From Candidatus Enterousia sp. (GTDB lineage Bacteria; Pseudomonadota; Alphaproteobacteria; Rs-D84): a stretch of 64,000 nt of DNA. The stretch covers positions 15,355 to 79,354 of the forward strand of contig JAZTWT010000019.1 of the NCBI GenBank assembly GCA_045636045.1, read 5' to 3'. The translations under genes and the position numbers were made by a program. The notes beneath the pieces are model-generated. The model worked only from the letters and a program-made list of their open reading frames with translations. It ran no database searches and had not been told where the DNA came from. Of this stretch, positions 1 to 63,196 are shown piece after piece. How positions within the stretch are numbered: position 1 is the first letter of the stretch; every line of letters begins with the position of its first letter.

Positions 1-966
1 CTTATCGGCCTTTGCTTTTGCATCTGCTGCCGCATCAGTCTTCGCAGTTTCAATCGCCGATGTCAAAGTTGTGTTCTGCTGTGAAACAACACTTTCCAAC
101 ACATCAACTTCGCCCTGTGCTTTATTTGCTGCTGTCTGTGCCGCTGCAGCTTCTGTAACAACTTCTTTAATAGCCCCAACAACTGTAGTTGCATCTGTTC
201 CCATATTGGCTGATGTCACAGTACCCAAATTAGTTTCAACTGTCTGAATCTTATTTGCAACAGAGCCCTCTGCCGAGGCGTTATTCATGTTTTGAATTGT
301 CTGATTTATTTCAGTTTTTGCTGAATTGATTTGTGCCGCTATAGAACCAGTCACATCTGTACCACCCATCAAAGTACCAATATCACTTTCTGTACCACCA
401 ACACGATCCTCCAATTCTCCAACACTAACACTCAAACCGTCAGATACTTGCTTTAATTCATTGTCAATCATACTGTATGTCGCTTTGGCAGACAAATATT
501 TTGTATCATCTTCTTTCGTTGTGGCATCTTGAACTTTCGCATTCTGAATCATATTACCAACAATTTGTTTTTCATTCAACGCATCCTGCAAACCAGAAAC
601 CTTACCAATCGAAATTGAATCTACAACCGCATCTGTAATCTTACCTGTCGTTCCAGTAACCGCACCATTTTCCTGTTTAACAGTCAACACAACCTTTCCA
701 TCTTCAGCAACTGAACCATTTAATGCATTAATTTTACCATCAATCTGGTCAGAAACAGACCCTGCGCCAGAACCTGCAACCGTCCCCAACTTTGTATCCA
801 AGGCTTTAACAGCTTCCGTCAAGTTCTGTGCATTTTTTGCGATCTGCGCATCTGCAAATGACACATCACCAGTACGTGTTGTAACATAATCAGTTGATGC
901 GATTTCTGCGCGTGCCGCGGTCACCGCCATAATTGCAACCAAAGATGCAGTTAATATTTTTTTCAT
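1..966 (-). CDS. Secreted fibrous repeat protein, array member 1 (5' part only; C-terminus lies beyond window start)
   Basis: Open at the window edge, so absent from the ORF track. My reverse-strand translation from ATG 964-966 (RBS AGGAAGGA upstream) reads MKKILTASLVAIMAVTAARA then EIASTDYV: a Sec-type signal plus the S-T-x-Y-V motif. The block DDTKYLSAKATYSMIDNELKQVSDGLSVSVGELEDRVGG parallels DDKYLSAKATYAAIDNQLTAVSNGLQLSVNALDQRVGD in the next gene. Confidence 0.75.
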   Translation of the reverse strand, partial: MKKILTASLVAIMAVTAARAEIASTDYVTTRTGDVSFADAQIAKNAQNLTEAVKALDTKLGTVAGSGAGSVSDQIDGKINALNGSVAEDGKVVLTVKQENGAVTGTTGKITDAVVDSISIGKVSGLQDALNEKQIVGNMIQNAKVQDATTKEDDTKYLSAKATYSMIDNELKQVSDGLSVSVGELEDRVGGTESDIGTLMGGTDVTGSIAAQINSAKTEINQTIQNMNNASAEGSVANKIQTVETNLGTVTSANMGTDATTVVGAIKEVVTEAAAAQTAANKAQGEVDVLESVVSQQNTTLTSAIETAKTDAAADAKAKADK

Positions 967-1016
967 GTTTTCCTTCCTTTCTTTTTGTTTTATTGTTCTC
1001 TTTCTCTTCGAAACCT

Positions 1017-1046
1017 ATTTTATCATAAAATGCGAATCGCTGTCTA
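1017..1046 (-). promoter_or_regulatory. Putative sigma70-type promoter of array member 1
   Basis: The reverse strand reads TAGACA-18 nt-TAAAAT. The spacer begins GCGATTCGC and ends TTTTATGA. Confidence 0.35.
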
Positions 1047-1072
1047 TAATAAAATTTCCTAATTTTGTTTTT

Positions 1073-2512
1073 TTAACGTCCGGCAATATTTTCCCACGCA
1101 TATGTGACCTGGTCACCCTTTTGCGTGGCGGTCAATACATACATACCGTCTTCGGTACGGGTCTCGTATGCCGGAACCTCAAACTTCTTCTCCAACGTTG
1201 TCGACAAATCCTTAATCTTGGCAACTGACAATTCACCATCGTTAATTGTTGCATTCGTCACCGCACCGGCCGCAATTGTACCGGCCGTCACCGCATTCTG
1301 TGCCAAGTTTCCAGCCTCAACCGCACCGGCGGCCAAATTTCCCGCAACAACTGCACCATCTGCAATCGTCCCTTCGGTCACTGCATCCGCCGCAATTTTA
1401 CCGGCGGTCACTGCATTTGCCCCCAATTTATCAGATGTCACGGCACCGTCATTAATCTTTTCCGTCGTAACCGCAGAATCCGCAATCATACCTGTTCCAA
1501 TACTTTTTGATGCAATTGAAATATTACCAGACGCATCTATAACAATAACACCATCCGCACTGGTCAATTTCACCTGTTTTGCATCCAATGCCGCCTGCAG
1601 TCCATCAACCTGGGAAATCGCAATTACCGGGATATCAGACGCCACCAACGCCGCACGTGTCACGGTAATAACACCATTTTCCTGGGATACAGATTTAACA
1701 AATTCTTTGGCAACTGGTTCGTCAACATTTTTAAGTGCCGCGATACGATCAACAACCGATGTGTCACCAACTTTATCTTCCAGTGCACCAATTCTAACAC
1801 CATGTCCTGCAACCGTACCCTGCAAACCAGTACCACCGGTACCATCTTCACCGGGACCAACACTACCCAAATCTTCGGTCAACTTCTTAATTTGGTTATC
1901 TGTATACGCCTTGGCATCTGTCAACTTCTGTGTTGCCGCCGTCTGCGCTTCGAACAATTTATCCGCCGCATCTTTTGAATAAACATCGGCAATATTGGCC
2001 TTTAAATCAATATTTGCCTGCAATGCATTATCCGCAGATTCACGTGCTGTTTTTTCAGCCGCGATTGCTGTTTCATTCGCAGCAACCTTAACATTTGTTG
2101 CATCTAATGCAGTCTGGTCCGCTTTCAGGTCAATATTCGCCTGCAAATCCGTTTTTAACTTAGAAATCGACCCCTCTCCATTTCCATTCAAGACCTTAAT
2201 TTCACCTTCTGCATCACCAACACGCTGATCCAATGCGTTAACAGACAACTGCAAACCATTAGAAACAGCAGTCAATTGATTATCAATCGCCGCATATGTT
2301 GCCTTGGCTGACAAATATTTATCATCCGCTGCCTGCGTCGTCGTATCTGTTGCATTTTCCGATAACACCATATTAGACGCAACCTGCATATCCTTTAATT
2401 CCAACTCTAATTTATCATTTAAATATTCCGTAGAAACAACGGCCGCTTTTGCCGTACCGACAGACACCAGTCCCAACAACAGGGTAAAAATTCCCGCGGT
2501 CAATTTTCTCAT
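1073..2512 (-). CDS. Secreted fibrous repeat protein, array member 2 (decapeptide AVTxGxIAxG repeats)
   Basis: ORF 1073-2626. Start moved to the internal ATG at 2510-2512 (MRKLTAGIFTLLLGLVSVGTAKA, AGGAAGG RBS). VVSTEYL motif after the signal. Ala/Asp/Leu/Gln-rich core, about 9 tandem 10-aa repeats, and a C-terminal GMYVLTATQKGDQVTYAWENI module. Confidence 0.8.
   Translation of the reverse strand: MRKLTAGIFTLLLGLVSVGTAKAAVVSTEYLNDKLELELKDMQVASNMVLSENATDTTTQAADDKYLSAKATYAAIDNQLTAVSNGLQLSVNALDQRVGDAEGEIKVLNGNGEGSISKLKTDLQANIDLKADQTALDATNVKVAANETAIAAEKTARESADNALQANIDLKANIADVYSKDAADKLFEAQTAATQKLTDAKAYTDNQIKKLTEDLGSVGPGEDGTGGTGLQGTVAGHGVRIGALEDKVGDTSVVDRIAALKNVDEPVAKEFVKSVSQENGVITVTRAALVASDIPVIAISQVDGLQAALDAKQVKLTSADGVIVIDASGNISIASKSIGTGMIADSAVTTEKINDGAVTSDKLGANAVTAGKIAADAVTEGTIADGAVVAGNLAAGAVEAGNLAQNAVTAGTIAAGAVTNATINDGELSVAKIKDLSTTLEKKFEVPAYETRTEDGMYVLTATQKGDQVTYAWENIAGR
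1208..1504 (-). repeat. About 9 tandem 30-bp (10-aa) repeats, consensus AVTxGxIAxG, inside array member 2
   Basis: The translation reads ADSAVTTEKINDG AVTSDKLGAN AVTAGKIAAD AVTEGTIADG AVVAGNLAAG AVEAGNLAQN AVTAGTIAAG AVTNATINDG ELSVAKIKD. Confidence 0.85.
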
Positions 2513-2543
2513 ACTAAATCCCTTCCTTCCTTTCGTATGGTGC

Positions 2544-2573
2544 ATTATATCATATTTACCCGAATCGCGTAAA
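2544..2573 (-). promoter_or_regulatory. Putative promoter of array member 2
   Basis: The reverse strand reads TTTACG-18 nt-TATAAT. The spacer begins CGATTCGGG and ends AATATGA. Confidence 0.35.
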
Positions 2574-2659
2574 GCAAAAATATAAATTTTTTTACAAAAT
2601 GATAAAAAAAGGAGCAGATTACCCACCCCTTTTTTTATATCAGAATCACATTCTGTTAA

Positions 2660-3658
2660 TTACAAAGACAATGCCAATTCCATCCAGTATGGCTGTCCAG
2701 ACCCATCAACCGACAAAACGCACTTTTCATTTGCACAGTTTGCGTTTGGCTTTGGGATTGCATAACCTTGGACAGTTGTCTTAGCAGTATTCGCAACCGA
2801 ACCAGCCTCAGTATCTGCAGCGTTCAACTTTGCAATCGCATCCTGATTTGCTTTTACTTCTGTATCTTTCAATGATGTCACAGATGTTGACACATCCCCA
2901 ATCATTGCAACCACAGTTTTACCATCGGCAACTGTACCAATCTTTGCCTCGATTTTATCATCTTCTGTTTCGGCATAACTTTTTGCCTGTGCCAGAATAC
3001 CGGTTGTCTCATCGGTCAAACCTTCAATCGCTTCCTTATTCCCTGTCGCGATTGTATATGTCGCCGCCAAACCAGTTGCTTCATTATCAACTTTACCTGC
3101 CAGACTTGTTAAATCAGACGCATCTGCCTTACCCTGCAATGCAGTATCTAAGCCCTGAACCTGTGTCTGCTGAATAACCGCATTTGCAATTTTATATGCA
3201 ACAGAACCTTGCTTTGATGCATCCACATCGTTCAACAAAGCGATATCAGATTTATTCGTCGCAACATCCTGTACCAATGTCGCAACACCATCCACACCAC
3301 TTTCACCACCCAACATGTTGATTGCTTGAGTATTTGCAGCAATATCTTCACTCTGTTTCTTATCAACGCCAGCCTGAGTCGTAACAAACTGATTGTAAAC
3401 AGATGTATCTAATTTGAGCCCCAATGCAGATTCCACACCCTGTGCAGCAGTCTGCGCATCAGCTTTGGTCTGATAATCCTTTGCAACATTTGCTTCTAAA
3501 GCTACAACGTCCTGAGAAACTTTACCAACCTTAGCTTCAACATAGCCTGTTGAAGCAACGCTAACCGGTTTCGCTTCCCCTTCTGCCATTGCAGCGCCAG
3601 ATGCCGTCATCAGAATTGCCGCCATAACGCCTGAAAACATAATATTTTTAACTTTCAT
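2660..3658 (-). CDS. Secreted fibrous repeat protein, array member 3
   Basis: Signal MKVKNIMFSGVMAAILMTASGAAMA. VASTGYVEAKV motif. Ala/Thr/Asp/Gln-rich core. C-terminal EKCVLSVDGSGQPYWMEL module. Confidence 0.8.
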   Translation of the reverse strand: MKVKNIMFSGVMAAILMTASGAAMAEGEAKPVSVASTGYVEAKVGKVSQDVVALEANVAKDYQTKADAQTAAQGVESALGLKLDTSVYNQFVTTQAGVDKKQSEDIAANTQAINMLGGESGVDGVATLVQDVATNKSDIALLNDVDASKQGSVAYKIANAVIQQTQVQGLDTALQGKADASDLTSLAGKVDNEATGLAATYTIATGNKEAIEGLTDETTGILAQAKSYAETEDDKIEAKIGTVADGKTVVAMIGDVSTSVTSLKDTEVKANQDAIAKLNAADTEAGSVANTAKTTVQGYAIPKPNANCANEKCVLSVDGSGQPYWMELALSL

Positions 3659-3730
3659 TGTCTTTCCTTTCTTTTCTTTCTTTTTTTTAATTACGCCACA
3701 TTCATTATGACGGCGAATTTAAGTTTTGTA

Positions 3731-4822
3731 TTACTGCGCCTGTGGTTGCACCGTTGTCAAAGACACTGGCTGTCCATTAGCACCCAAAATCTGAATTGGC
3801 GCATATGATACCGCACCTGTTTCAGTAAAGTTTACCAAATAAGTACCTGGCTGTTTGATATTAGAAACCTTCATCGCAACTTCATCTTTTGTCGCCAAAT
3901 CATCCAGGTCACCAGAATCCGCCTTACCTGCCAACGCAGTTTTAATCGCAGCCTGGGTCATTGTACCATCTGTCGCATCACCTTCGGCTCCATACAACTT
4001 TGTCAAACCTTCTGTTTGTGCCGTACCAACATTATATGTCGTATTATTATCAGTTGCACTAATCGTGTAAACACCATCTGCAAAATTGACAGAAACACTT
4101 TCTGAACCCGAAACAACATTCGCCGCGGTCAAAGTATTCTGTTTCTTTCCTAATTCCGTATCAACCTCATCCTTGGTGTAAACATCTGCAGAATTTGCCT
4201 TTAACGCAATATTTTGTGTATTTTCTGCAACCTGTTTTACCAAACCAGAATTCTCATCACCAACTGCGATTTGCAATTTTGAAACTTTGGTCACAATACC
4301 TTCATCGACACCTTCTACACCCTGCAGGGTATCAACCACCTTGTCCAACTCTTCGATATCTTTTTCAGCATTGGTGACGCGTGTATCTAATGCACTTGTA
4401 ATTGCATGTACAACACCACCTGTCACCAGACCAGTATTACCTTCTGCAACTTGCCCATCTGCTGTCACTGTGATTTTATTATCAGCAACAGAAACATAAC
4501 CTTCGCCCTCATATTCGGTATTATTGTCGGTAATTGTATAAACACCCGTTTGGTCATTAAATGAAACAGCATTACCATTAATGGCCGAACCTGTTAATTT
4601 CTTATTAACTTCTTCTTTAGTTGCCAAATCAGACAAATCAACATCAATTTTATTATCTTCGGAAATTGTCACATTACCTTCTGCAACCAACTTTGCCTGC
4701 AATTTAGCATCTGCATAGTCTTTTGAAATCAAAGACACATCTGCTGCTGCACTGGCCGCCCCACAAACTGTGGCAAAAATTGCCGCCGCAAAACCCGAGA
4801 ACATTACATTTTTAATTTTCAT
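3731..4822 (-). CDS. Secreted fibrous repeat protein, array member 4
   Basis: Signal MKIKNVMFSGFAAAIFATVCGAASA. LISKDYADAKL motif. Repeated YTITDNNTEY / YTISATDNNTTY segments. C-terminal PGTYLVNFTETGAVSYAPI module. Confidence 0.8.
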   Translation of the reverse strand: MKIKNVMFSGFAAAIFATVCGAASAAADVSLISKDYADAKLQAKLVAEGNVTISEDNKIDVDLSDLATKEEVNKKLTGSAINGNAVSFNDQTGVYTITDNNTEYEGEGYVSVADNKITVTADGQVAEGNTGLVTGGVVHAITSALDTRVTNAEKDIEELDKVVDTLQGVEGVDEGIVTKVSKLQIAVGDENSGLVKQVAENTQNIALKANSADVYTKDEVDTELGKKQNTLTAANVVSGSESVSVNFADGVYTISATDNNTTYNVGTAQTEGLTKLYGAEGDATDGTMTQAAIKTALAGKADSGDLDDLATKDEVAMKVSNIKQPGTYLVNFTETGAVSYAPIQILGANGQPVSLTTVQPQAQ

Positions 4823-4865
4823 CTTTCCTTCCTTTCCTTTTTATGGTCTTACCGACCTATTTTGT

Positions 4866-6002
4866 TTACTTCAAAATCTCTACTGATAACCAGGTAACAT
4901 TTCCTTCCGCATCAACACTCATCAACAGTGTTTCACCCGGTTTCGGCATTCTACCTGCAATCTTTTCCAATGTGACCGCATCAGGTTGAATCTGGTCTGC
5001 AGCAACTGAATCCTTGGTTGCCAACACCCCCAATTCATCCGTCTTGGCATAACCACCCAGCTCGGATTCAGTCACAAAATCCGCAGTTGCTGTTGTAATC
5101 GCACCCTGAACTGCTTCTGCATCTTGATAACCTGCCCCCTTAATAGCAGCAATATCAGCAGTATTCGTACCAACCTGGGTCTGCAATTTTGACAAATCGC
5201 CGGCAACAGAATTAACCTTGGTCACAGCTGTATCCGCAATAGTCTGCGCAACCGCAATCGAAGGAAACTTCTTCGCCTTGTCCTCTGTTGTCATTTCTGC
5301 CAATTCTTCTTCTGTAATTGTCGAAACCTTATTTGCCGCATCTTCCTTGGCATCCAATTTAGCCAGGAAACCATCAATCGCATTCTGCAATTCTGTCAAA
5401 GCAGACACATCCGCCTTGTTAGACTGCAGGGCGTTTATCGCCTGATTTATACTCTGCAAACTTTCCGCCGTCAAATAATCACCAGATGCCTGCTTCTTTG
5501 CAATTTCTGCTAACAAATCTTCCTGTAAATCTAATAATTCTTGACTGGTGGCCAAACCATCAATTGATGGAATTTCTGGTGCATCAACTAAATCATTAAA
5601 TGAACCAGTCGTCGCAACAGTTGCCAACCCTGAAATATTTTCTGCCGGCAATTTATTTTGCTCATTAATAACTGGATGTTTACCCTGCAACCCATGATAC
5701 AATTCATTAATCGCCGGGATTGCCAACTTCTGATTTGTTTCCAACTCTATCCATTGACCTGTATTATCTTGGGCATTCAACATATCACGCACTAATACCA
5801 AACGCCCATTCAACGTATTCAATCGATCTGCCAGCTGGTTATCTCGACTATAAAGGGTGTTATCCTTGGTATTAACATGCCCCACAACGCTTACTACCTG
5901 GCTATCAACGTATTCCTTGGTCGCATAACCATCTTCTGAATACGCCGCCCTAGAAGCCATGGCACAAAGTAAAGACACTAATAAAAGATTCTTTTTTCTC
6001 AT
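4866..6002 (-). CDS. Secreted fibrous repeat protein, array member 5
   Basis: ORF 4866-6044. Start moved to ATG 6000-6002 (MRKKNLLLVSLLCAMASRAA). YATKEYVDSQV motif. VATTGSFNDLVDAPEIPSIDGLAT motif. C-terminal GETLLMSVDAEGNVTWLSV module. Confidence 0.78.
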   Translation of the reverse strand: MRKKNLLLVSLLCAMASRAAYSEDGYATKEYVDSQVVSVVGHVNTKDNTLYSRDNQLADRLNTLNGRLVLVRDMLNAQDNTGQWIELETNQKLAIPAINELYHGLQGKHPVINEQNKLPAENISGLATVATTGSFNDLVDAPEIPSIDGLATSQELLDLQEDLLAEIAKKQASGDYLTAESLQSINQAINALQSNKADVSALTELQNAIDGFLAKLDAKEDAANKVSTITEEELAEMTTEDKAKKFPSIAVAQTIADTAVTKVNSVAGDLSKLQTQVGTNTADIAAIKGAGYQDAEAVQGAITTATADFVTESELGGYAKTDELGVLATKDSVAADQIQPDAVTLEKIAGRMPKPGETLLMSVDAEGNVTWLSVEILK

Positions 6003-6056
6003 TGCAAATTCTCTCACACTACTAAATTTATCCAATCCCAACAATTAAAAATAAAC

Positions 6057-8078
6057 TTACCAGCCACCATCATCACCCCAATCGAAACCATCGCCACTAG
6101 AACCAGATGAGCTTACAGTTTTCCACGAATACGAACACGTTTCAGTTGTACAGGTTGCCACCAACATATAATCACCGATTGTTGTTGGTTTTGTTGGGTT
6201 TGCAATATACTTATCCGCCGACGAATACGCAGCAGACCCCAGCCCCTTAACCGCAACGTCCACACCATTAACCGCCAGCGTACCATTCGCACCACCTGGC
6301 ACAACTGTCACAACAGCAGCATCCGCCTTGTCCAAAGAAGCCTGAACCCCTTCTGCCAAAGCCGCCTTAGCAACAGTCCCTGCTGCAATATTCGCACCAT
6401 TCAGCTCACTTGCTGCGGTCAAATAATCACCTTTTGCCTGATATTTAGAATCCAGCGCCGACAACTGTTCAACGGTTGCATATCCCGACAAATCGATCGA
6501 ACCACCAGTTGCCGCTTCCGCAATCTTCTGATCAACCTCAGCCTTGGTATAAACTTTGCCTGTCAATTCCGCCAAAGAATCCGACACCGTTTTCAAGCCA
6601 GCCGCCGTCGCATAATCACCCGACGCCTGCTTTTTTTCAATCTCAGTTTCTAACGCAGTACGCAATGCTGATAACTGATCACTTGTCACCAAATCAGACA
6701 GCTGCTCTGTTTTTGCATAATCTGTCAAATCAACATTCGCAGAAATCGTATTATCTTCTGAAATACTGATATTTGCCCCAGGCGTTAACTTATCCTGCTT
6801 ATCCTGCAATTCTGCCTTGGTCGCTAAACCATCAATCGATGGCAATTCCGCCTTGGTCGCAAAAGTCTTTGCCGATTCCAATGTCACATAATTATCCGCA
6901 ACAAATTGCTTAGTTGCATATGCATCCAAACTAGGAATATCAATCGCATTGATTGCATTCTGCAATCTTAACTCAACTGCATCCAATTCTGACTTCTTGG
7001 CATAATCATCACTAATTGTCTTTAATGACGCCTTTAACCCTTCAACAACCGATGCATCCGCCTTGTTAGTTTTTAACAACTCTATCGCTGCATTAATTTC
7101 CAACAAATCATCAGATTCTAACTTTGCTTCAATCGCTGCTTGCAACGCTTCCTGAACCTCTGCCAAGGCCGCCGTATCAACCAGACCATCAGTCGATGGC
7201 AATTCCGCCTTGGTCGCATAATCTGTCAAATCAACATCCGCAGAAATCACATTGCCAGAAATCGTAATATTCTGACCCGCCGTCAATTTATCCTGCTTTC
7301 CCGCTAAATCATCTTTTGTCGCCAAACCTGCTGTTGCTGAATCAATCGCCGTCTCAACCTGCCCTGCGGTCTGATACCCTGCTGCCTTAATCCCTGCAAT
7401 ATCTGTTTCCATACCTGAAATATCAGCCGATGTCACAAAATCACTGTCATTCTGCAACTGTGAAATTTTTTCTGGAATTGTCGGCGTGTCTTTCAAGCTG
7501 TTATAAGAACCCGTGGTTGCAACCGCAGCCAAATCAGTCAATTTAACATAACCATCCAAACTTGGTATAATAATTGCATTGATTGCATTCTGCAATCTTA
7601 ACTCAACCGCGTTTAATTCCGACTTCTTGGCATAATTTTCAATAATCGAATCTACAGATGCACGTAATCCCTCTATGGCCACATTATCAACACCACCTGC
7701 CTGCAAACCTTCTACAACCACCTGCAAATCTTCCAACTGTTTAACCGTTGCATAATCGCCAGCCACCTGCTTGGCCGCAATCTCATCCTGCAAAGCCTTC
7801 TTTACATTCTGCAAATCTTCATCTTTTACAAACGTTGCAAAATCAGGAAGTTCACCATTTTTCACAAACCCAGTGGTATCAACAACAGACTTAATCACAT
7901 TATTCTTAATTTCAATACCTTCACCTGCCGTCAAAGCACCTTGCTTTAATGCCAAGGCATCATCAACATATTTCTTGCTGACCAAATTTACAGTCGTAGT
8001 CGTCGCACCAGCAACACCGGACACAGCCATCAGAATAGCAGCCATAAATCCAGAAAAAGCAATATTCTTAACTTTCAT
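6057..8078 (-). CDS. Secreted fibrous repeat protein, array member 6 (673 aa, internally duplicated modules)
   Basis: Signal MKVKNIAFSGFMAAILMAVSGVAGA. LVSKKYVDDAL motif. VATTGSYNSLKDTPTIPEKISQLQND and KQDKLTAGQNITISGNVISADVDL motifs. The module ...AKKSELDAVELRLQNAINAI.IPSLD.Y occurs twice. C-terminal GDYMLVATCTTETCSYSWKTV module followed by a Gly/Asp/Trp tail. Confidence 0.85.
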   Translation of the reverse strand: MKVKNIAFSGFMAAILMAVSGVAGATTTTVNLVSKKYVDDALALKQGALTAGEGIEIKNNVIKSVVDTTGFVKNGELPDFATFVKDEDLQNVKKALQDEIAAKQVAGDYATVKQLEDLQVVVEGLQAGGVDNVAIEGLRASVDSIIENYAKKSELNAVELRLQNAINAIIIPSLDGYVKLTDLAAVATTGSYNSLKDTPTIPEKISQLQNDSDFVTSADISGMETDIAGIKAAGYQTAGQVETAIDSATAGLATKDDLAGKQDKLTAGQNITISGNVISADVDLTDYATKAELPSTDGLVDTAALAEVQEALQAAIEAKLESDDLLEINAAIELLKTNKADASVVEGLKASLKTISDDYAKKSELDAVELRLQNAINAIDIPSLDAYATKQFVADNYVTLESAKTFATKAELPSIDGLATKAELQDKQDKLTPGANISISEDNTISANVDLTDYAKTEQLSDLVTSDQLSALRTALETEIEKKQASGDYATAAGLKTVSDSLAELTGKVYTKAEVDQKIAEAATGGSIDLSGYATVEQLSALDSKYQAKGDYLTAASELNGANIAAGTVAKAALAEGVQASLDKADAAVVTVVPGGANGTLAVNGVDVAVKGLGSAAYSSADKYIANPTKPTTIGDYMLVATCTTETCSYSWKTVSSSGSSGDGFDWGDDGGW
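6859..7636 (-). repeat. Near-identical co-linear block shared with 8406-9349 (array member 6 copy)
   Basis: By manual alignment, 6859-7199 matches 8406-8746 with about 9 mismatches in ~341 bp. 7201-7307 matches 8799-8905, and 7447-7563 matches 8958-9074. A weaker second copy of the first segment starts near 7545. Confidence 0.85.
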
Positions 8079-8107
8079 CTTTCTTCCTTATCCCCTGCAA
8101 ATTTTAC

Positions 8108-10078
8108 TTAGTCAACCACAACATTAACCCATTCCGAAGTGCCATCAGATTTAGCCTGCAACATCATATAACCAGAAGTCGCTTCACCCGCCGCACCTAA
8201 ATCCAACATACTTGGCACAACCTGACTCTCTGCACCCTTCTTAACATAATCCTCAGATGCCGTCGCAATCAAACCTTGAACCTGCGTCGCCGTCTGATAA
8301 CCCGCTTTTTCCAACACCTGAACACGACCATCAATCGCTTCAACATCTGATACCGACGCTTTTTCAGCCAACGCAGAAACAATACCCTGAACATCCTCAC
8401 TCAAAGCAAAAGTCTTTGCCGATTCCAATGTCACATAATTATCCGCAACAAATTGCTTAGTTGCATATGCATCCAAACTAGGAATATCAATCGCATCAAT
8501 CGCATTCTGCAATCTTAACTCAACTGCATCCAATTCTGACTTCTTGGCATAATCATCACTAATTGTCTTTAATGATGCCTTTAACCCTTCAACAACCGAT
8601 GCATCCGCCTTGTCAGTTTTTAACAACTCTATCGCTGCATTAATTTCCAACAAATCACCAGATTCTAACTTTGCATCAATCGCCGCTTGCAACGCTTCCT
8701 GAACCTCTGCCAAGGCCGCCGTATCAACCAGACCATCAATCGATGGAATATCCAATGCCTCTAATTCTGCCTTGGTCGCCAAACCATCAATCGATGGTAA
8801 TTCCGCCTTGGTTGCATAACCAGACAAATCAACATCCGCAGAAATCACATTGCCAGAAATCGTAATATTCTGACCCGCCGTCAATTTATCCTGCTTTCCC
8901 GCTAATTCGCCCTTGTTCACATAATTTCCTAACTCTGTCGCAACAACAAAGTGCGCATCATTCTGCAACTGTGAAATTTTTTCTGGAATTGTCGGCTTGT
9001 CTTTTAAGCTGTTATAAGAACCCGTGGTTGCAACCTCAGCCAAATCAGTCGATTTAACATAGCCATCCAAACTAGGAATATCAATCGCATCAATCGCACT
9101 CTGTAATCTTAACTCAACCGCATCCAATTCTGACTTCTTGGCATAATCATCACTAATTGTCTTTAATGACGCCTTTAACCCTTCAACAACCGATGCATCC
9201 GCCTTGTCAGTTTTTAACAACTTTATCGCTGCATCAATTTCCAACAAATCATCAGATTCTAACTTTGCATCAATCGCTGCTTGCAACGCTTCCTGAACCT
9301 CTACCAAGGCCGCCGTATCAACCAAACCATCAATCGACGGCAATTCCGCCTTGGTTGCATAATTTGCCAAAATTGCATCCGTTTCAACCTTAGTATAATA
9401 ATCCGACAAACGCCCATTCAAATCAGTAATATCATCCAAGACAGCCTGCAAAGCCTCTTTAACACGCCCATCAAAATAATCCGATAATTTATATGGCGGC
9501 AACTGTTGCCCATCAACCGAAACAAACAACTCGCCCGTCGCCTCATCGAACACAACATCAGTCACAAAACCGGTCACATTCTTCAAATCTTCCTTCAAGC
9601 TTTCAACATCCAACTTAACTGCCGACAACTGCTCTGCCAACGTTTCTCCACTGGCTTTAAAATCAACAAACCCCTCCAACGCCGCAACACGATCACGCAA
9701 ATCATTACCCGAATTGGACGAACCACCAACATTAACACCACCCTGGGTCGAAGAACCACCACTAATCGCACTAGACCCCGACAGATACTTACCAATTGAC
9801 AAACGCGGTGTTGTGGCCGCACGCGTTGACCCCACACGCGTCGCACCTGCCGCACCATTCGAAACATTATTCACACGCATCGACCCCGCACGCACCGAAC
9901 CAGACATATCAACCGACGAATTACCACCAGACTTTGCCGCAACAGCACTTGAAGCACCATTATATGTACCCACACCCCCCAACGAGCGCACAGAAGATGC
10001 AGAAAACGCAGGCATTACCACCGTTGCACACATCACACACACAACAGACAGCATAGATATTTTCAGTTCGTTTTTCAT
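8108..10078 (-). CDS. Secreted fibrous repeat protein, array member 7 (656 aa, Ser/Gly/Arg-rich N-terminal region)
   Basis: Signal MKNELKISMLSVVCVMCATVVMPAFS. A Ser/Gly/Arg/Val-rich low-complexity region of about 100 aa follows. After that it has the same modules as member 6 (VATTGSYNSLKDKPTIP, KQDKLTAGQNITISGNVISA, duplicated LESDDLLEI.AAI.LLKTDKADASVVEGLKASLKTISDDYAKKSELDAVELRLQ). C-terminal SGYMMLQAKSDGTSEWVNV module. Confidence 0.85.
   Translation of the reverse strand: MKNELKISMLSVVCVMCATVVMPAFSASSVRSLGGVGTYNGASSAVAAKSGGNSSVDMSGSVRAGSMRVNNVSNGAAGATRVGSTRAATTPRLSIGKYLSGSSAISGGSSTQGGVNVGGSSNSGNDLRDRVAALEGFVDFKASGETLAEQLSAVKLDVESLKEDLKNVTGFVTDVVFDEATGELFVSVDGQQLPPYKLSDYFDGRVKEALQAVLDDITDLNGRLSDYYTKVETDAILANYATKAELPSIDGLVDTAALVEVQEALQAAIDAKLESDDLLEIDAAIKLLKTDKADASVVEGLKASLKTISDDYAKKSELDAVELRLQSAIDAIDIPSLDGYVKSTDLAEVATTGSYNSLKDKPTIPEKISQLQNDAHFVVATELGNYVNKGELAGKQDKLTAGQNITISGNVISADVDLSGYATKAELPSIDGLATKAELEALDIPSIDGLVDTAALAEVQEALQAAIDAKLESGDLLEINAAIELLKTDKADASVVEGLKASLKTISDDYAKKSELDAVELRLQNAIDAIDIPSLDAYATKQFVADNYVTLESAKTFALSEDVQGIVSALAEKASVSDVEAIDGRVQVLEKAGYQTATQVQGLIATASEDYVKKGAESQVVPSMLDLGAAGEATSGYMMLQAKSDGTSEWVNVVVD
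8406..9349 (-). repeat. Near-identical co-linear block shared with 6859-7636 (array member 7 copy), itself internally duplicated
   Basis: See the partner feature. In addition, 9064-9349 repeats 8470-8746 within the same gene. Confidence 0.85.
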
Positions 10079-10163: not shown

Positions 10164-10850
10164 TTAGAATTCATACCGCAAACCAACCGAGAAAGAATTG
10201 CTAAAGATTGAATTAATATTAGTCTTCAACCAATATTCACCAGCATCTGATATACCACTGGCTTTAACATCTGGACCAAACATCAAAGATAAACGATAAC
10301 GAAAATCCAAACTTACACGCTCCGCCAATTTATGAGAATAACCGACCATCAAATCAAATTTTGGCGACACTATACGATCATCTGAATCAAACGTATGCCA
10401 CGCCAATTCAGCCTTTGGCAGCGCAACCCCTAAGCCTCCACCGACATAAACATTATTTCCAAAATCATAAATCACATTGACTGACAGATATGGTATCGTC
10501 AACTTAAAATCCGCACCATAACCACTATCCGTAAATTGACCAATAATACCAGCCTCTAATTCACCACGCCAATCTGCAGTCGCCATATTACCAATCGCCA
10601 ACGATCCCCCAAAAACAGATTCAAATGAAAAATTTTCAGATTTTCCATCCAAATCTACAACATCCGAAGAATACTTGTTCTTCCAATTTAACAATGACAT
10701 TTCACCACGGATCGTACCATACCAAGAACCAGCATCCGCAGAACGCACAGCATGCGATTTAACCGCATAACGATCCCCCGTACGCTGTGGCGCAGCAAAA
10801 GCTGGCGCAATTAACAATGCACAAACTGCAACAGATATAATTTTTTTCAT
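10164..10850 (-). CDS. Small outer-membrane beta-barrel protein (Omp25/OmpA-like barrel family)
   Basis: Signal MKKIISVAVCALLIAPAFA. Alternating hydrophobic beta-strand pattern and Gly/Tyr-rich sequence. C-terminus ...SVGLRYEF ends in an aromatic residue, typical of OM barrels. Confidence 0.65.
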   Translation of the reverse strand: MKKIISVAVCALLIAPAFAAPQRTGDRYAVKSHAVRSADAGSWYGTIRGEMSLLNWKNKYSSDVVDLDGKSENFSFESVFGGSLAIGNMATADWRGELEAGIIGQFTDSGYGADFKLTIPYLSVNVIYDFGNNVYVGGGLGVALPKAELAWHTFDSDDRIVSPKFDLMVGYSHKLAERVSLDFRYRLSLMFGPDVKASGISDAGEYWLKTNINSIFSNSFSVGLRYEF

Positions 10851-12609: not shown

Positions 12610-13125
12610 ATGCTAAAACGACTGCTAACACCATCTTTTTTAATTTTCAGTCTGTTCATTCTTGGCGGAATGGTATTTAAATCCATCGCCCCAATTCAGT
12701 GCGGCGCAATTCTGCCAAATGACAGCATATTTGTCCTGACTGGGGACGAACGCCGAATCCCATTTGCTATACGTAAAATGCATGAATTTCCAAATGCAGA
12801 CCTGTACATAATCGGAGCCGGCGCCCAGGGAAAAATATCAGTATCACGCCCAGCAATTATAGAATCAAAATCAAAATCCACATATCAGAACGCATTGGCA
12901 ATTCGCAACATCGCAGAATCGCGTGACTTAAAACGCTTGGTAATAATCACAACCGAAGACCACATGAATCGCGCAAAACACCTGGTACAATCCGAATTGC
13001 CCGACACAGAAATTATTGCTTGCCCCGCAATACTAACAGGTATGTCACCATCAAAAAGACTTGAAAGATGGGCAACCGAATATATAAAATATATCGTCAC
13101 AATGTTTGGAATTAAAGAAAGCTAA
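12610..13125 (+). CDS. DUF218 (YdcF/ElyC-like) domain protein
   Basis: N-terminal TM helix. VLTGDERRI and ITTEDHMNRA motifs are typical of DUF218. The ATG directly abuts the ftsX stop codon. Confidence 0.6.
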   Translation: MLKRLLTPSFLIFSLFILGGMVFKSIAPIQCGAILPNDSIFVLTGDERRIPFAIRKMHEFPNADLYIIGAGAQGKISVSRPAIIESKSKSTYQNALAIRNIAESRDLKRLVIITTEDHMNRAKHLVQSELPDTEIIACPAILTGMSPSKRLERWATEYIKYIVTMFGIKES

Positions 13126-13141
13126 GAAAAAGGAAAGAAAA

Positions 13142-13849
13142 ATGTTCAGAACTATATTATTTAAAATTGCATTGCCAATCTATTTCATACTATGGTCACC
13201 ACTTTTGTTAATTGGCCTGGTTTCAAAAAAACTGTCACACAAGTTGGTATTCGCAGATGCCGCTGGTGTTTTGGTTTTGGCACGTCTGATTTGTGGCATC
13301 AAGTACCAGGTACACTATCCACAAACCGAAGAAAACGGTATACCAGCAATGCCTGACGGCAATAAACGTCTGGACGGCAAATCAATAATCGCCGCAAAAC
13401 ACATGTCTATTTTGGAAATCGCAGTAATTTCCCGTGTCGTTCCAAATTCTTTCTTTATAATGAAACGTGAATTACTGTGGATACCTGTTTACGGCTGGGC
13501 ATTCTGGCGTTGCGGCATGCTGGGGGTAAATCGCGCACGTGGCAAAACAAACATGAAAAAATTAGCAGACGATGTTGAACAACGTGTCCTGAATGGTGGC
13601 ACACTAGTAATATTCCCCGAAGGTACGCGTGCAAAACCAGGTGAACACATACCATTAAAACGTGGTCTGCTGTTATTGGCACACACATTAAAACTGCCAA
13701 TCCTGCCTGTCGGCACAGATGCAGGTCTGTACTGGCCTAAACACGGTCGCATGCACCCAGGAACAGCGAATGTATGGTTTGAACCTTTATTACCATGCAA
13801 CGCATCATTGGATGAAATTTCCGAAGCCATAAATCGCCACAGCGCATAA
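13142..13849 (+). CDS. plsC: 1-acyl-sn-glycerol-3-phosphate acyltransferase
   Basis: ORF 13106-13849; start moved to ATG 13142 (MFRTILF...). HX4D-like KHMSILE motif and FPEGTR motif. N-terminal TM helix. Confidence 0.75.
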   Translation: MFRTILFKIALPIYFILWSPLLLIGLVSKKLSHKLVFADAAGVLVLARLICGIKYQVHYPQTEENGIPAMPDGNKRLDGKSIIAAKHMSILEIAVISRVVPNSFFIMKRELLWIPVYGWAFWRCGMLGVNRARGKTNMKKLADDVEQRVLNGGTLVIFPEGTRAKPGEHIPLKRGLLLLAHTLKLPILPVGTDAGLYWPKHGRMHPGTANVWFEPLLPCNASLDEISEAINRHSA

Positions 13850-13860
13850 CTATACAATTA

Positions 13861-13945
13861 ATAAAAATAAATCGAGAATCACAGTGTACACAACACTACA
13901 CAAGATTCCCGATTTATTTTTAGATAAATTATTATAATTTATATT
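13861..13945. repeat. Long-palindrome intergenic element, copy A (left arm shortened)
   Basis: TAAAAATAAATCGAGAATC ...loop... GATTCCCGATTTATTTTTAGATAAATTATTATAATTTAT. Lies between the convergent plsC and SNase genes. The SNase stop codon falls inside the right flank. Confidence 0.7.
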
Positions 13946-14352
13946 TTACACCAACTTTTTCTTTTGCCACCACTGTAGCGTCGCGCTAATTTTTCGCGAA
14001 CCAAAACATCACCAACATCACGACCATCTGGGACAATGACATTAGCATCAATCCGCCCCAAATATTTGTCATCCTTTATATTTTTCAGTTCTATTTTTGC
14101 GCCACGGGGCAATAATTTTTCCAACCGTCCACGTGCACGCTGCGCCATTTTGATTTCTGAATCACATTCACCACTTAATTCCGGCGTATCAACATTTATC
14201 AAACGAACACGAACCGTAACTTGAACATCATCTGCAACACCAACACGTGCTGCGAATGTATCTCCATCCAAAACATAATCAACAACTGCCGGCACTGCAT
14301 GCGCAGACAGCGTAAAAACCATCACAAATAAAGCAACCAGACATACCTTCAT
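13939..14352 (-). CDS. Secreted staphylococcal-nuclease-like (SNase/thermonuclease) protein
   Basis: ORF 13939-14391; start moved to ATG 14350-14352 (MKVCLVALFVMVFTLSAHA signal). SNase motifs are present: DGDTF, RLINVDTPE and YLGRIDA. Confidence 0.8.
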   Translation of the reverse strand: MKVCLVALFVMVFTLSAHAVPAVVDYVLDGDTFAARVGVADDVQVTVRVRLINVDTPELSGECDSEIKMAQRARGRLEKLLPRGAKIELKNIKDDKYLGRIDANVIVPDGRDVGDVLVREKLARRYSGGKRKSWCKI

Positions 14353-14353
14353 T

Positions 14354-15673: not shown

Positions 15674-15792
15674 CTAAAAATCCTTTCCTTTTTTATACAA
15701 AGCAATTTTAAACACACAAAACACAAAAATCAAACCAAAAGCACACCACAACACAAACAGCAACACAACAGCCATTACAATCGCAAACACAA

Positions 15793-15837
15793 GTGTATTT
15801 ATATTTGTATTGACAAATGTATTTACAATGGTATAGT
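15793..15837 (+). promoter_or_regulatory. Putative promoter with three TGTATT(TA) direct repeats upstream of the RHH/DinD-like pair
   Basis: TTGACA (15810-15815), 16-nt spacer, TATAGT (15832-15837). TGTATTTA at 15793 and 15818 and TGTATT at 15806 overlap the -35 and spacer, giving an operator-like layout. Confidence 0.45.
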
Positions 15838-15882
15838 TCGTTGTAATTACCGCTGTATTGTGGTTCGTATAGGAGAATGTGT

Positions 15883-49510: not shown

Positions 49511-49543
49511 ATTTATATTCTCCTACGACATCTGTATATTTTA

Positions 49544-63107: not shown

Positions 63108-63196
63108 ACAAAAAAGTATACAAGAATTATTTCTTAAACCAAGCATAAAAGAACGCCCAGGAAATCCCCAGGCGTTTCAGCATTAAGTGATAAAAA

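What the first reader, a model, noticed from the sequence alone, without database searches (positions are those of the whole stretch)
1..10078. Seven tandem genes for Sec-exported, phage-tail-fibre-like fibrous proteins: candidate cell-encoded surface fibre/adhesin arsenal
Seven consecutive minus-strand ORFs are separated by only 29-147 bp: 1-966 (partial), 1073-2512, 2660-3658, 3731-4822, 4866-6002, 6057-8078 and 8108-10078. All begin with a Sec-type signal peptide, and three share the opening MK[VI]KN[IV].FSG. Six continue with an S-[TK]-x-Y-[VLA] motif. Their cores are long Ala/Asp/Leu/Gln/Thr-rich coiled-coil-like or short-repeat regions. Several motifs are, to my recollection, hallmarks of phage tail-fibre or receptor-binding proteins: VATTGSYNSLKD[KT]PTIP, VATTGSFNDLVDAPEIP, KQDKLTAGQNITISGNVISA and the AVTxGxIAxG decapeptides. 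Here these motifs carry export signals, and the adjacent 54 kb shows no phage structural, lysis or integration genes. I also see no YadA-type anchor, autotransporter barrel, lipobox, LPXTG or obvious T1SS signal. My reading is a chromosomally encoded set of exported, probably trimeric fibres for adhesion or host, prey or partner recognition. The idea is analogous to the chimeric tail-fibre-like surface fibres reported for Bdellovibrio, but the architecture differs. A small OM barrel gene (10164-10850) sits immediately upstream on the same strand and could be a partner or anchor; that part is speculative. The array may continue beyond position 1.
Basis: partly seen in the sequence, partly recalled or inferred. 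Interest (0 to 1): 0.85.

Follow-up and report, generated by a model that had tools for sequence, protein, structure and literature searches.

The report
Conserved array of exported fibre proteins
A gut bacterium with a very small genome (Candidatus Enterousia group) keeps a conserved row of seven genes for exported, rod-like proteins built from the same blocks as phage tail fibres; they are most likely surface fibres for holding on to a partner cell, but their location and function are untested.

Summary
Seven same-strand genes (1-966 partial, then up to 10078) plus an outer-membrane barrel gene (10164-10850) are present, with Sec-type leaders and the quoted motifs.

The locus is chromosomal, not a prophage. 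Relatives have the same order: TolB…FtsX-FtsE-OMP-[4-8 fibre genes]-DedA-RbfA-LepA. This holds in more than 50 species-level MAGs of order Rs-D84 (Candidatus Enterousia), gut Alphaproteobacteria with genomes under 1 Mb and a proposed partner-dependent lifestyle. The array ends with the partial gene at position 1.

Each protein consists of:
- a position-specific leader and N-terminus;
- a mosaic core of short helices and beta-hairpin modules;
- a roughly 30-aa C-terminal beta cap found only in this clade.

The core modules recur in verified phage tail and fibre proteins. Gene interiors and C-terminal tips are reshuffled between species and strains, while gene junctions stay conserved.

No Pfam, NCBIfam or PDB family covers these proteins, and no anchor or secretion domain was found.

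Best reading (about 0.55): phage-derived, probably trimeric surface fibres for partner or host recognition. They are functionally analogous to Bdellovibrio MAT fibres but are not members of that family. Oligomeric state, surface exposure and ligand remain inferred.

The parts
1..966 (-). W1 ('t1' type), last gene of the array. It is partial: the N-terminal 322 aa are present and the C-terminus lies off the window.
   Evidence: Translation. The leader MKKILTASLVAIMAVTAARA|EIASTDYV is 82% identical to the last-gene orthologues in L001 and L004. Orthologues are 331-425 aa and are followed by DedA/VTT, rbfA and lepA.
1073..2512 (-). W2 ('t2' type), 479 aa. It has a leader, a long helix, a beta-hairpin, eight AVTxxxI decapeptide repeats (nt 1244-1474) and a C-terminal cap (nt 1094-1147).
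   Evidence: Sequence. The repeat region matches PHROG tail-fibre families (E = 3e-10 to 1e-8). tblastn finds phage tail fibre, host-specificity J and WIAG-tail proteins. The AF2 monomer has a confident helix at 69-173 (pLDDT 82-95).
2660..3658 (-). W3, 332 aa, with an MKVKNIMFSG leader, STGYV motif and a cap containing a Cys pair (C308/C313).
   Evidence: The orthologue in L008 has a near-identical cap, GYAVPKPGTNCAHAKCVLSVDQNGDPYWMELALSL.
3731..4822 (-). W4, 363 aa, with an MKIKNVMFSG leader, SKDYA motif, and the cap GTYLVNFTETGAVSY followed by a tail.
4866..6002 (-). W5, 378 aa, with a leader, TKEYVD motif, the VATTGSFNDLVDAPEIP module (nt 5568-5618), an AGYQ motif and the cap ETLLMSVDAEGNVTWLSVEILK.
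   Evidence: An exhaustive HMMER search gave 986 representatives at E <= 1e-3. Outside the clade, the match is to residues about 118-154 and is repeated in large proteins. All six of those proteins scanned match PHROG families; three match families annotated tail or tail fibre at E <= 1e-10, and two more match such a family more weakly.
6057..8078 (-). W6, 673 aa, with an MKVKNIAFSG leader, SKKYVD motif, repeated modules, the NGTLAVNGVDVAVKGLGSAAY module, a Cys-pair cap (nt 6123-6176) and an acidic Gly-rich tail ending in W.
   Evidence: It is 61% identical to W7 over 374 aa. It shares 300-nt DNA repeats with W7 at 97% and 81% identity. BLASTP against the fibre of phage contig L079 gives E = 5e-9.
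8108..10078 (-). W7 ('t7' type), first gene of the array, 656 aa. After the leader comes a basic Ser/Gly/Ala-rich N-domain (aa 27-125, nt 9704-10000, pI 11.7), then an acidic rod and a cap.
   Evidence: The N-domain (SSVRSLGG…TPRLSIGKYL) is conserved across the clade and was not found outside it. The VATTGSYNSLKDKPTIPEKISQLQND module matches viral contig L073 (E = 1e-10).
10164..10850 (-). Small outer-membrane beta-barrel protein, 228 aa, co-oriented and immediately upstream of the array.
   Evidence: Pfam OMP_b-brl, E = 2e-7. It is 43% identical to the orthologues in L001 and L004. In 53 of 54 related loci it lies 63-114 nt upstream of the t7 gene.
6859..7158 (.). Reference copy of a 300-nt DNA repeat shared by W6 and W7. 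The other copies are at 8406-8705 (97%) and 9000-9299 (81%).
   Evidence: This indicates recent gene conversion or duplication between paralogues.

Best explanation
The locus is a conserved chromosomal operon-like array in Rs-D84 / Candidatus Enterousia bacteria. It encodes a set of Sec-exported, acidic, elongated fibre proteins assembled from modules of phage tail-fibre origin.

Proposed working, step by step:
1. Each protein is exported by Sec and its leader is cleaved. This is inferred from leader features and from Cys pairs that occur only in the mature C-terminal cap.
2. The roughly 30-residue C-terminal beta cap, which emerges last, nucleates oligomerisation, probably into trimers. The rod of short helices and beta-hairpin modules then zips up behind it. 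This is inferred by analogy with fibritin and phage fibres.
3. The fibres end up on the cell surface. The conserved N-terminal end is proximal. The first gene product (W7, with a basic disordered N-domain) and/or the adjacent small OMP may serve as a base. This step is inferred and the route across the outer membrane is unknown.
4. The variable C-terminal parts act as distal, exchangeable tips that recognise a partner cell, host surface or mucus. Reassortment of the tips is shown; ligand binding is inferred.

These organisms have genomes under 1 Mb and lack most biosynthesis, so the fibres are most plausibly their attachment or recognition apparatus.
For: Chromosomal and conserved.
- The same gene order, flanked by housekeeping genes, is seen in L001-L005, L008, L011 and L023.
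- 35 loci span the whole array and hold 4-8 fibre genes. The array always starts OMP then t7 and ends t2 then t1.

Taxon and lifestyle.
- 67 loci come almost entirely from Enterousia, uncultured Alphaproteobacteria or 'Rickettsiales' gut MAGs.
- Rs-D84 genomes are under 1 Mb, lack flagella and are proposed to be obligate symbionts or parasites (PMC12306168).

Export.
- Leader features are present in all members.
- Mature proteins have pI 4.2-4.4, and Cys occurs only as pairs in the caps.

Fibre nature and phage ancestry of the modules.
- PHROG tail-fibre families match the W2 repeats, and tblastn finds phage tail fibres.
- The decapeptide module co-occurs with Collar, Mtd_N, S74 and YadA-anchor domains in other proteins.
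- The fibre of IMG/VR phage contig L079 shares several modules with W6 (E = 5e-9), and the contig carries portal, capsid-like and tape-measure genes.
- L073 has an almost identical VATSGSYSDLSNKPTIPTRTSELTNDSGF module.
- Large proteins that repeat this motif hit PHROG tail and tail-fibre families.
- The W2 model's best Foldseek/BFVD hits are phage fibre proteins (E about 1e-4).

Exposure-type evolution.
- Identical N-termini pair with 3-5 different C-terminal tip types.
- Strains 99.7% identical differ by a 148-aa repeat indel, and strains 94-97% identical have whole segments replaced.
- Flanks align at 75-83% nucleotide identity between species, but inside the array only gene junctions align.

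Clade-specific ends.
- The cap HMM hits 115 of 120 W6 relatives and 0 of 1420 viral six-frame ORFs.
Against: - No outer-membrane anchor, translocator or sorting signal of any known type is present, so surface display is not explained.
- Both AF2 monomer models are poor (pTM 0.24-0.26), and no multimer prediction was possible, so trimerisation is untested.
- The cap profile does not match the T4 foldon in the PDB.
- The heptad signal is weak in several members.
- OMP adjacency may only reflect the generally frozen gene order of these small genomes.
- No expression or localisation data exist.
- The hydrophobic leaders of W3, W4, W6 and W7 are 21-24 residues long and strongly conserved, which leaves room for an uncleaved signal-anchor.
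Confidence: 0.55

Rival explanations
1. A surface coat rather than an adhesin. The fibres form a dense, antigenically variable, acidic fibrillar layer, comparable in role to an S-layer or capsule. It would shield the cell from phages, host immunity or predators, or act as a phage decoy. The shuffling would then serve evasion, not ligand recognition.
For: The evolutionary pattern is the same as for the best explanation: tip reassortment, repeat indels between near-identical strains, and conserved junctions. All members are uniformly acidic and low in aromatic residues. The number and order of paralogues is fixed across genera. Because the modules are shared with phage fibres, the proteins could mimic or compete with phage receptor-binding proteins.
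Against: There is no self-assembly or lattice domain and no S-layer or RTX signature. The lineage appears to need physical access to a partner, which an inert coat would not provide. Like the best explanation, this reading lacks any shown surface route.
Confidence: 0.2
2. Envelope-internal proteins. The hydrophobic N-termini are uncleaved signal-anchors, or the mature proteins stay in the periplasm. They would work as spacers or tethers of the cell envelope together with the neighbouring Tol-Pal and FtsEX functions.
For: The array sits beside ftsE/ftsX, tolB and, in relatives, pal. The leaders are unusually conserved and 21-24 residues long in four members. No outer-membrane export or anchor feature is present.
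Against: Orthologue lengths vary several-fold; t7, for example, ranges from 289 to 1063 aa. Tips are swapped between strains. Both features are unexpected for periplasmic rulers or tethers. Rods of 600-1000 aa would exceed the width of the periplasm. AXA cleavage motifs follow every leader. Homology is to virion-external fibre modules.
Confidence: 0.12
3. Structural fibres of a phage-derived particle (prophage remnant, tailocin or GTA) whose other genes lie elsewhere.
For: Module-level homology to phage tail and fibre proteins.
Against: Every member has a Sec leader, which virion proteins assembled in the cytoplasm lack. No phage structural, lysis or integration genes are present in the window or in the flanks of orthologous loci. 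The array occupies the same chromosomal position in more than 50 species. The cap and N-terminal regions are absent from the viral contigs examined.
Confidence: 0.03

Closest known systems
Bdellovibrio bacteriovorus MAT (mosaic adhesive trimer) fibre proteins (Caulton et al. 2024, PMC10769870)
   Same: Both are cell-encoded, carry a signal peptide, occur as multi-paralogue sets, and are fibres chimeric with phage tail-fibre elements. Both have a conserved N-terminal end and diversified, exchangeable C-terminal ends. In both, the route to and the anchor on the surface are unknown.
   Different: MATs have an invariant beta-rich N-domain of about 130 aa after the leader, and many have an S74 chaperone-protease. 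Here the mature N-terminus runs within 3-15 residues into an ordinary fibre module ([ST]-K-x-Y-V-D…). No S74 domain is present. All members end in a small clade-specific beta cap. The genes form one syntenic array with an OMP gene, and the host is a bacterium with a genome under 1 Mb that is not a known predator.
Phage tail fibres and fibre-repeat proteins (PHROG 28766, 892, 9729, 11660, 17509; 'WIAG-tail' type decapeptide repeats)
   Same: Several sequence modules are shared: VATxGSYxDLxxKPxIPxKxSxLxND, KQxxLTAGxNIxIxxNVISA, NGTxxVxGxDVxVKGLGxAAY and I-x-D-G-A-V-T-x-x-K decapeptides.
   Different: These proteins carry Sec leaders, sit in a housekeeping chromosomal context, have no virion-attachment N-domain, and end in a cap absent from the viral loci examined. 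Overall similarity is modular; W6 had no tblastn hit in 50,697 phage genomes at E <= 1e-3.
T4 fibritin (Wac)
   Same: The predicted architecture is alike: a segmented helical rod interrupted by loops, ended by a very small C-terminal beta element that could nucleate trimerisation. A '…L-x-x-AGY…' transition motif also occurs (my recollection of the fibritin sequence, not tested here).
   Different: No detectable sequence relationship. The cap profile does not hit the many foldon-tagged PDB chains. The cap is predicted as a 2-3-stranded meander that is longer than the foldon.
Trimeric autotransporter adhesins (YadA, Hia, BadA; type Vc secretion)
   Same: Both are Sec-dependent, fibrous and repetitive, and both use a modular 'stalk' design. 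One database protein even combines the W2-type decapeptide module with a YadA anchor.
   Different: The defining C-terminal 4-strand beta-barrel anchor (PF03895) is absent from all seven proteins.

Membership tests
Trimeric autotransporter adhesins (type Vc) | C-terminal YadA-like membrane anchor (PF03895) forming a 12-strand trimeric barrel | tested here: not met
   No Pfam hit in any of the seven proteins, even at E <= 1. The C-termini are caps of about 30 aa.
Trimeric autotransporter adhesins (type Vc) | Head, neck or stalk domains (Pfam YadA_head, YadA_stalk, HIM, etc.) | tested here: not met
   None detected.
Bdellovibrio MAT fibres | Signal peptide | tested here: met
   Heuristic leader analysis of all seven proteins. 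SignalP was not run.
Bdellovibrio MAT fibres | Conserved beta-rich N-terminal domain of about 130 aa immediately after the signal peptide (PMC10769870) | tested here: not met
   The mature N-termini enter a helix or fibre module within 3-15 residues. W7 instead has a basic, low-complexity region of about 100 aa. No direct sequence comparison with Bd proteins was possible.
Bdellovibrio MAT fibres | Trimeric fibre demonstrated on the cell surface | not testable with these tools
   Only monomer AF2 was available and confidence was low. No localisation data exist.
Bdellovibrio MAT fibres | S74 chaperone-protease (S74 subfamily only) | tested here: not met
   No PF13884 hit.
Phage tail fibre / receptor-binding proteins | Sequence modules of tail-fibre families | tested here: met
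   PHROG tail-fibre hits for W2. Modules are shared with the L079 and L073 viral fibres. Proteins that repeat the motif are in PHROG tail families.
Phage tail fibre / receptor-binding proteins | Encoded within a phage structural module and assembled in the cytoplasm (no export signal) | tested here: not met
   The flanks are housekeeping genes in the window and in more than 50 orthologous loci. All members carry leaders.
T4 fibritin-type foldon | C-terminal foldon sequence or fold | tested here: inconclusive
   The cap profile against PDB sequences gave no foldon hit. The models show a small C-terminal beta-hairpin or meander, but a trimer could not be modelled.
OMP_b-brl small outer-membrane barrels (gene 10164-10850 only) | Match to Pfam PF13505 above the gathering score, a signal peptide and a C-terminal aromatic residue | tested here: met
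   31.8 bits against a cut-off of 28.7. A leader is present. The protein ends …GLRYEF.
Flagellin/hook, S-layer, RTX/T1SS substrates | Family domains or repeats | tested here: not met
   No Pfam or NCBIfam hits.

The most novel reading that the evidence does not exclude
The OMP and the 4-8 fibre proteins together form one dedicated, phage-derived docking organelle. The basic-tailed first protein (t7) and the barrel protein would form a base. The position-specific paralogues would form a defined bundle or set of fibres. The exchangeable C-terminal tips would determine which partner cell (bacterium, archaeon or gut protist) these alphaproteobacteria with genomes under 1 Mb can attach to and live off. 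That would make it the host-range determinant of a so far uncharacterised episymbiotic or parasitic lifestyle, evolving like a phage receptor-binding locus.
Probability: 0.2. Interest if true: 0.85.

Novelty: new variant of a known kind. Interest (0 to 1): 0.62.

Why it matters
Rs-D84 / Enterousia bacteria are widespread in ruminant, horse, chicken and human guts. Their genomes are under 1 Mb with almost no biosynthesis, and nobody knows what they attach to or how (PMC12306168).

A conserved 10-kb array, about 1% of the genome, is a concrete and testable candidate for their partner-recognition apparatus. It encodes exported fibres made of phage-fibre modules, with recombining tips.

It would be a second, independent case, after the Bdellovibrio MAT proteins, of a bacterium using phage tail-fibre building blocks as its own exported fibres. 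It has a different N-terminal and C-terminal solution and an unexplained route across the outer membrane.

The tips could be used as probes to pull down the unknown partner or ligand. The conserved junctions could serve as PCR anchors for typing strain-level variation.

Tried and rejected
Orthologous loci were used instead.
- Pfam and NCBIfam gave nothing significant for the seven proteins.
- PDB sequence searches of W6 and W2 gave nothing. The OMP gave only spurious immunoglobulin hits.
- I hypothesised that the C-terminal cap is a T4-foldon homologue. Homology is rejected; an analogous role is retained as inference.
- tblastn of W6 against 50,697 phage genomes gave no hit. Module homology appeared only in the IMG/VR scan and the exhaustive HMMER search.
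- AF2 monomers were of low confidence: W6 mean pLDDT 52.6, W2 64.9, pTM about 0.25.
- Foldseek of W2 against the PDB and of W6 against BFVD gave nothing meaningful. W2 against BFVD gave only weak, partly sequence-driven hits to phage fibres.
- The promoter and terminator scan was not above the shuffled expectation.
- The prophage, tailocin or GTA reading was rejected on leaders and synteny.
- TAA, flagellin, S-layer and RTX readings were rejected for lack of their defining domains.
- Literature searches for Enterousia, Rs-D84 and exported tail-fibre-like proteins found no description of this array.
- Names for the large motif-repeat proteins were not available.


Full report

Yes. The ORF listing and translation reproduce the seven minus-strand ORFs at the stated coordinates: 1-966 (partial), 1073-2512, 2660-3658, 3731-4822, 4866-6002, 6057-8078 and 8108-10078. 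The 228-aa gene at 10164-10850 is also present. I call the seven W1 to W7, numbered upward from position 1.

The gaps between them are 106, 147, 72, 43, 54 and 29 bp. Each ATG is preceded by a purine-rich Shine-Dalgarno-like tract.

SignalP was not available, so I used a heuristic. It shows 2-3 basic residues in the first eight, an uncharged hydrophobic core and AXA-type sites near residues 20-26 in all seven proteins and in the barrel protein.

Two details differ. W5 has T-K-E-Y-V rather than S-[TK]-x-Y. W7 lacks that motif.

There is no lipobox and no LPXTG. Cys is almost absent from the mature chains.

**2. What are the organism and the context?**

A search of 5.8 billion proteins with W6 returned 566 relatives. 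All are unnamed or 'hypothetical', and the named ones come from 'Alphaproteobacteria bacterium' MAGs.

A scan of one genome per GTDB species found 67 loci. Almost all are labelled Candidatus Enterousia, uncultured Alphaproteobacteria or 'Rickettsiales', and come from ruminant, horse, pig and human guts. NCBI taxonomy places Enterousia in Alphaproteobacteria incertae sedis.

The one descriptive paper (PMC12306168) puts it in GTDB order Rs-D84. According to that paper, the genomes are 0.75-1.0 Mb. They have no flagella, no respiration and no amino-acid, nucleotide or lipid biosynthesis. The authors propose an obligate symbiont or parasite lifestyle.

The window's own contig could not be looked up. 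Orthologous loci give the context instead: TolB, SNase, acyltransferase, DUF218, FtsX, FtsE, (Pal), OMP, [fibre genes], DedA/VTT, RbfA, LepA.

In the window, Pfam and NCBIfam confirm DUF218, acyltransferase, SNase and TolB at 12610-15673. Only housekeeping and envelope genes follow up to 64 kb.

The array is therefore not in or next to a prophage or GTA. It ends with the partial gene at position 1, whose orthologues are 331-425 aa.

**3. How conserved is the array?**

I classified ORFs in all loci by their first 45 residues. The order is fixed: OMP, then t7 (W7 type), then one to five genes with MK[VI]KN-type or W5-type leaders, then t2 (W2 type), then t1 (W1 type).

Among 35 loci that span the array, there are 4 fibre genes in 4 loci, 5 in 17, 6 in 7, 7 in 6 and 8 in 1. 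The window is at the rich end.

The OMP gene lies 63-114 nt upstream of t7 on the same strand in 53 of 54 loci. All neighbouring genes are also syntenic in these small genomes, so this adjacency is suggestive and not specific evidence of partnership.

**4. What is the anatomy of the proteins?**

Each protein has three parts.

- *A position-specific leader and first roughly 40 residues.* These are far better conserved between genera than the rest. They are about 80% identical, against 30-35% overall. Identity to W6 by 25-residue block runs 64, 53, 31….
- *A core.* It is rich in Ala, Asp, Thr, Val, Gly, Lys and Leu, and almost lacks Cys, Trp, His, Arg and Pro. Mature pI is 4.2-4.4.
- *A C-terminal cap of about 30 residues.* Its pattern is (P-x-x-P)-x-G-x-[YLM]-x-L-x(5-12)-G-x(2-6)-W-x-x-[VI].

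Cys, where present in the mature chain, occurs as a pair inside the cap: W3 C308/C313 and W6 C643/C648. That fits disulfide formation outside the cytoplasm.

W7 is special. After its leader comes a segment of about 100 residues with 70% Ser/Gly/Ala/Thr/Asn and pI 11.7 (SSVRSLGG…SVRAGSMRV…TPRLSIGKYL). This segment is conserved across the clade and was found only there. The acidic rod follows. In some genomes, t7 is just this domain plus a short rod and the cap, 200-300 aa in all.

An HMM of the cap hits 115 of 120 W6 relatives. It hits only the Rs-D84 orthologues among W2 relatives. It hits none of 1420 six-frame ORFs from 25 viral loci. The ends are therefore the clade-specific parts.

**5. 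Are the proteins related to phage fibres?**

I tested it in several ways.

- W2's decapeptide repeats match PHROG tail-fibre families 28766, 892 and 21412, with E from 3e-10 to 7e-8.
- By tblastn, they match tail fibre, host-specificity J and 'WIAG tail domain' genes of phages.
- In the protein database, the same module sits in proteins that carry Collar, Mtd_N, S74, phage-tail and, once, YadA-anchor domains.
- W6 had no tblastn hit in 50,697 GenBank phages. An IMG/VR scan, however, found 25 viral loci.
- L079 is a real phage contig with portal, capsid-like and tape-measure matches. Its fibre of about 870 aa shares KQETLTAGKNISIIDNVISA, IPTKVSELTNDSNFVTEAEVSG and KTYVDEQLATKQ with W6. BLASTP gives E = 5e-9 for the best segment, plus several others.
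- L073 encodes a 1627-aa tail protein with LATVATSGSYSDLSNKPTIPTRTSELTNDSGFITG and GSANGTIAVDGTDVAVKGLGSAAY (E = 1e-10).
- A prophage-type protein with an Mtd_N/HylP-like N-terminus (my reading of the sequence; no family search was run on it), seen in Firmicutes- and Prevotella-labelled contigs, shares the last of those modules.
- An exhaustive HMMER search with W5 over 1.84 billion representatives gave 986 hits at E <= 1e-3, 179 at E <= 1e-10 and 24 at E <= 1e-30. Beyond about 30 family members, the hits are 600-2600-aa proteins that repeat the VATTGS… motif up to 25 times.
- All six of those proteins that I scanned match PHROG families, all of them phrog_17509 (function unknown). Five also match families annotated tail or tail fibre (9729, 11660, 31460), three of them at E <= 1e-10.

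The cores are therefore built from the module vocabulary of phage tail fibres. Even the N-terminal [ST]-K-x-Y-V-D…K-Q element is such a module.

**6. How does the array evolve?**

- W6 and W7 share 61% identity over 374 aa, and 300-nt DNA repeats at 97% and 81%.
- The best match of a core is often a different paralogue in another species. W5's core matches the L001 t6-type protein, and W4's core matches L001's last ORF.
- Proteins with identical N-termini carry three to five different cap or tip types.
- Two assemblies 99.7% identical across the array differ by a 148-aa tandem-module indel in t1. Assemblies 94-97% identical have whole segments replaced in three genes.
- Against five related species, the flanks, the OMP gene and the t7 N-domain align continuously at 75-83% nucleotide identity. 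Inside the array, only islands at gene junctions align (3' cap, intergenic region, 5' leader), at up to 82-87%.

This is cassette-style mosaic evolution with conserved junctions. It resembles phage receptor-binding loci and surface-antigen loci. It also offers a non-functional explanation for the unusually conserved leaders: they may act as recombination anchors.

**7. What do the structure predictions show?**

Only monomer AF2 was available.

- *W6, with 32 homologues:* mean pLDDT 52.6 and pTM 0.26. The model shows many helices of 12-50 residues, broken by loops and small hairpins at the NITISGNVISA-type modules, and a C-terminal hairpin.
- *W2, with 25 homologues:* mean pLDDT 64.9. There is a confident helix of about 105 residues (pLDDT 82-95) and an extended, non-regular decapeptide region (pLDDT 71-78). 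A helix followed by a three-strand meander forms the cap.

Foldseek against the PDB gave nothing. Against BFVD, W2's best hits are cyanophage and other phage fibre proteins, with E from 1e-4 to 1e-3 and TM below 0.2. W6 gave nothing.

The heptad signal exceeds shuffles modestly: 16% of windows in W1, 13% in W5 and 1% in W6.

'Elongated, segmented rod' is supported. 'Trimeric coiled coil' is not shown.

**8. What is the most likely mechanism?**

Shown:
- Sec-type leaders;
- an extracytoplasmic-type Cys pattern;
- a fibre-module composition;
- clade-specific ends;
- a fixed gene order with an OMP gene;
- recombining interiors and tips.

Inferred:
- The cap emerges last from Sec and nucleates oligomerisation, as C-terminal elements do in fibritin and many phage fibres.
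- The rods reach the cell surface.
- The conserved N-ends are proximal and the variable C-ends are distal.
- The basic tail of t7 and/or the OMP provides the base.
- The tips recognise a partner.

The organism's dependence on other cells makes attachment or recognition the most economical function. I give this reading 0.55.

The main weakness is that no known outer-membrane translocation or anchoring device is present. A PilN-type secretin with a TcpQ-like partner does lie 38 kb away, but I have no evidence linking it to the array.

Rival readings:
- a variable protective coat or decoy (0.2);
- periplasmic or inner-membrane-anchored envelope rods (0.12), disfavoured by several-fold length variation and tip swapping;
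- fibres of a phage-derived particle (0.03), disfavoured by the leaders and by synteny.

**9. How does it compare with what is known?**

Functionally, the closest system is the set of Bdellovibrio MAT proteins (PMC10769870). These are Sec-dependent, phage-like chimeric trimers on the predator surface, with conserved N-domains, swapped tips and an unknown anchor.

Membership fails. The MAT-defining beta-rich N-domain of about 130 aa and the S74 module are absent. The cap, the array organisation and the OMP linkage are different.

The proteins are not trimeric autotransporters, because they have no YadA anchor. They are not phage structural genes. They fall in no Pfam, NCBIfam or PDB family.

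I therefore rate this as a new variant of a known kind: cell-encoded, exported fibres of phage-fibre ancestry. The case is interesting mainly because of its host lineage and its evolutionary behaviour.

**10. Verdict**

Interest is 0.62. The locus is a well-defined, conserved, uncharacterised and experimentally approachable candidate for the partner-recognition apparatus of a widespread but unstudied lineage of reduced-genome gut bacteria. Its key functional claims are still inferential.

Noticed in passing
window 47882-50515 (-): A secretin gene (Pfam Secretin E = 1.6e-13; best NCBIfam model is the PilN type IVB pilus outer-membrane protein, 239 bits, below its cut-off of 287) sits next to a TcpQ-like gene (E = 5e-18). 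The pair is isolated between mnmE and sufB. It is a possible outer-membrane conduit in a genome under 1 Mb. No link to the fibre array was shown.
   Followed up: partly
window 38217-40397 (-): A 726-aa exported protein with no Pfam or NCBIfam match. After the leader comes a basic Ser/Thr/Arg/Val-rich region with repeated AVSRV / VRSAVSRV / VVSRSVKSV motifs. This resembles the basic N-domain of W7. The C-terminus is Cys-rich. The shared basic region may be an envelope-binding element.
   Followed up: no
window 61590-63146 (-): A 518-aa protein with a leader and a C-terminus typical of outer-membrane barrels (…ISLGAQLLF). It matches no family and could be an autotransporter-like protein.
   Followed up: no
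window 27320-28078 (-): A protein with a DisA-type diadenylate cyclase (DAC) domain (E = 2.7e-39). To my knowledge, c-di-AMP synthesis is uncommon in Alphaproteobacteria.
   Followed up: no
window 1-64000: GC skew on the + strand is negative in every 2-kb bin, down to -0.40 and cumulative -7.3, with GC around 41%. The whole window therefore lies on one replichore with unusually strong strand asymmetry.
   Followed up: no
L079 7767-10379 (IMG/VR phage contig, 31.8% GC): The phage fibre gene that shares modules with W6 is interrupted by a single in-frame TGA at 8247-8249, and the reading frame continues after it. This suggests TGA recoding or readthrough in this phage or its host.
   Followed up: partly
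L023 16503-18780: In this related genome, two extra ORFs follow the five-gene array. They are 488 and 262 aa and have outer-membrane-barrel-like C-termini (…GLQVMFQF and …GAQINVLF). In L050 the OMP gene lies after the array instead of before it.
   Followed up: no
L001 16167-17003 versus L002 16167-17447: Two assemblies 99.7% identical over the array differ by a 444-nt (148-aa) tandem-module insertion or deletion in the last fibre gene. This is strain-level length variation.
   Followed up: yes
L068 9623-11089 and L072 9575-11041: A nearly identical 488-aa tail-fibre protein with an Mtd_N/HylP-like N-terminus occurs in contigs labelled Hominicoprocola (Firmicutes) and Prevotella. The same phage may be binned into two phyla. 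It shares the NGT..V.G.DV.V.GLG.AAY module with W6.
   Followed up: partly
window 15708-16088 (-): A 126-aa ORF that is Cys/Tyr-rich and repetitive (…YKYKYTCVCDCNGCCVAVCVVVC…), with no family match. It is probably non-coding low-complexity DNA between tolB and the next gene.
   Followed up: no
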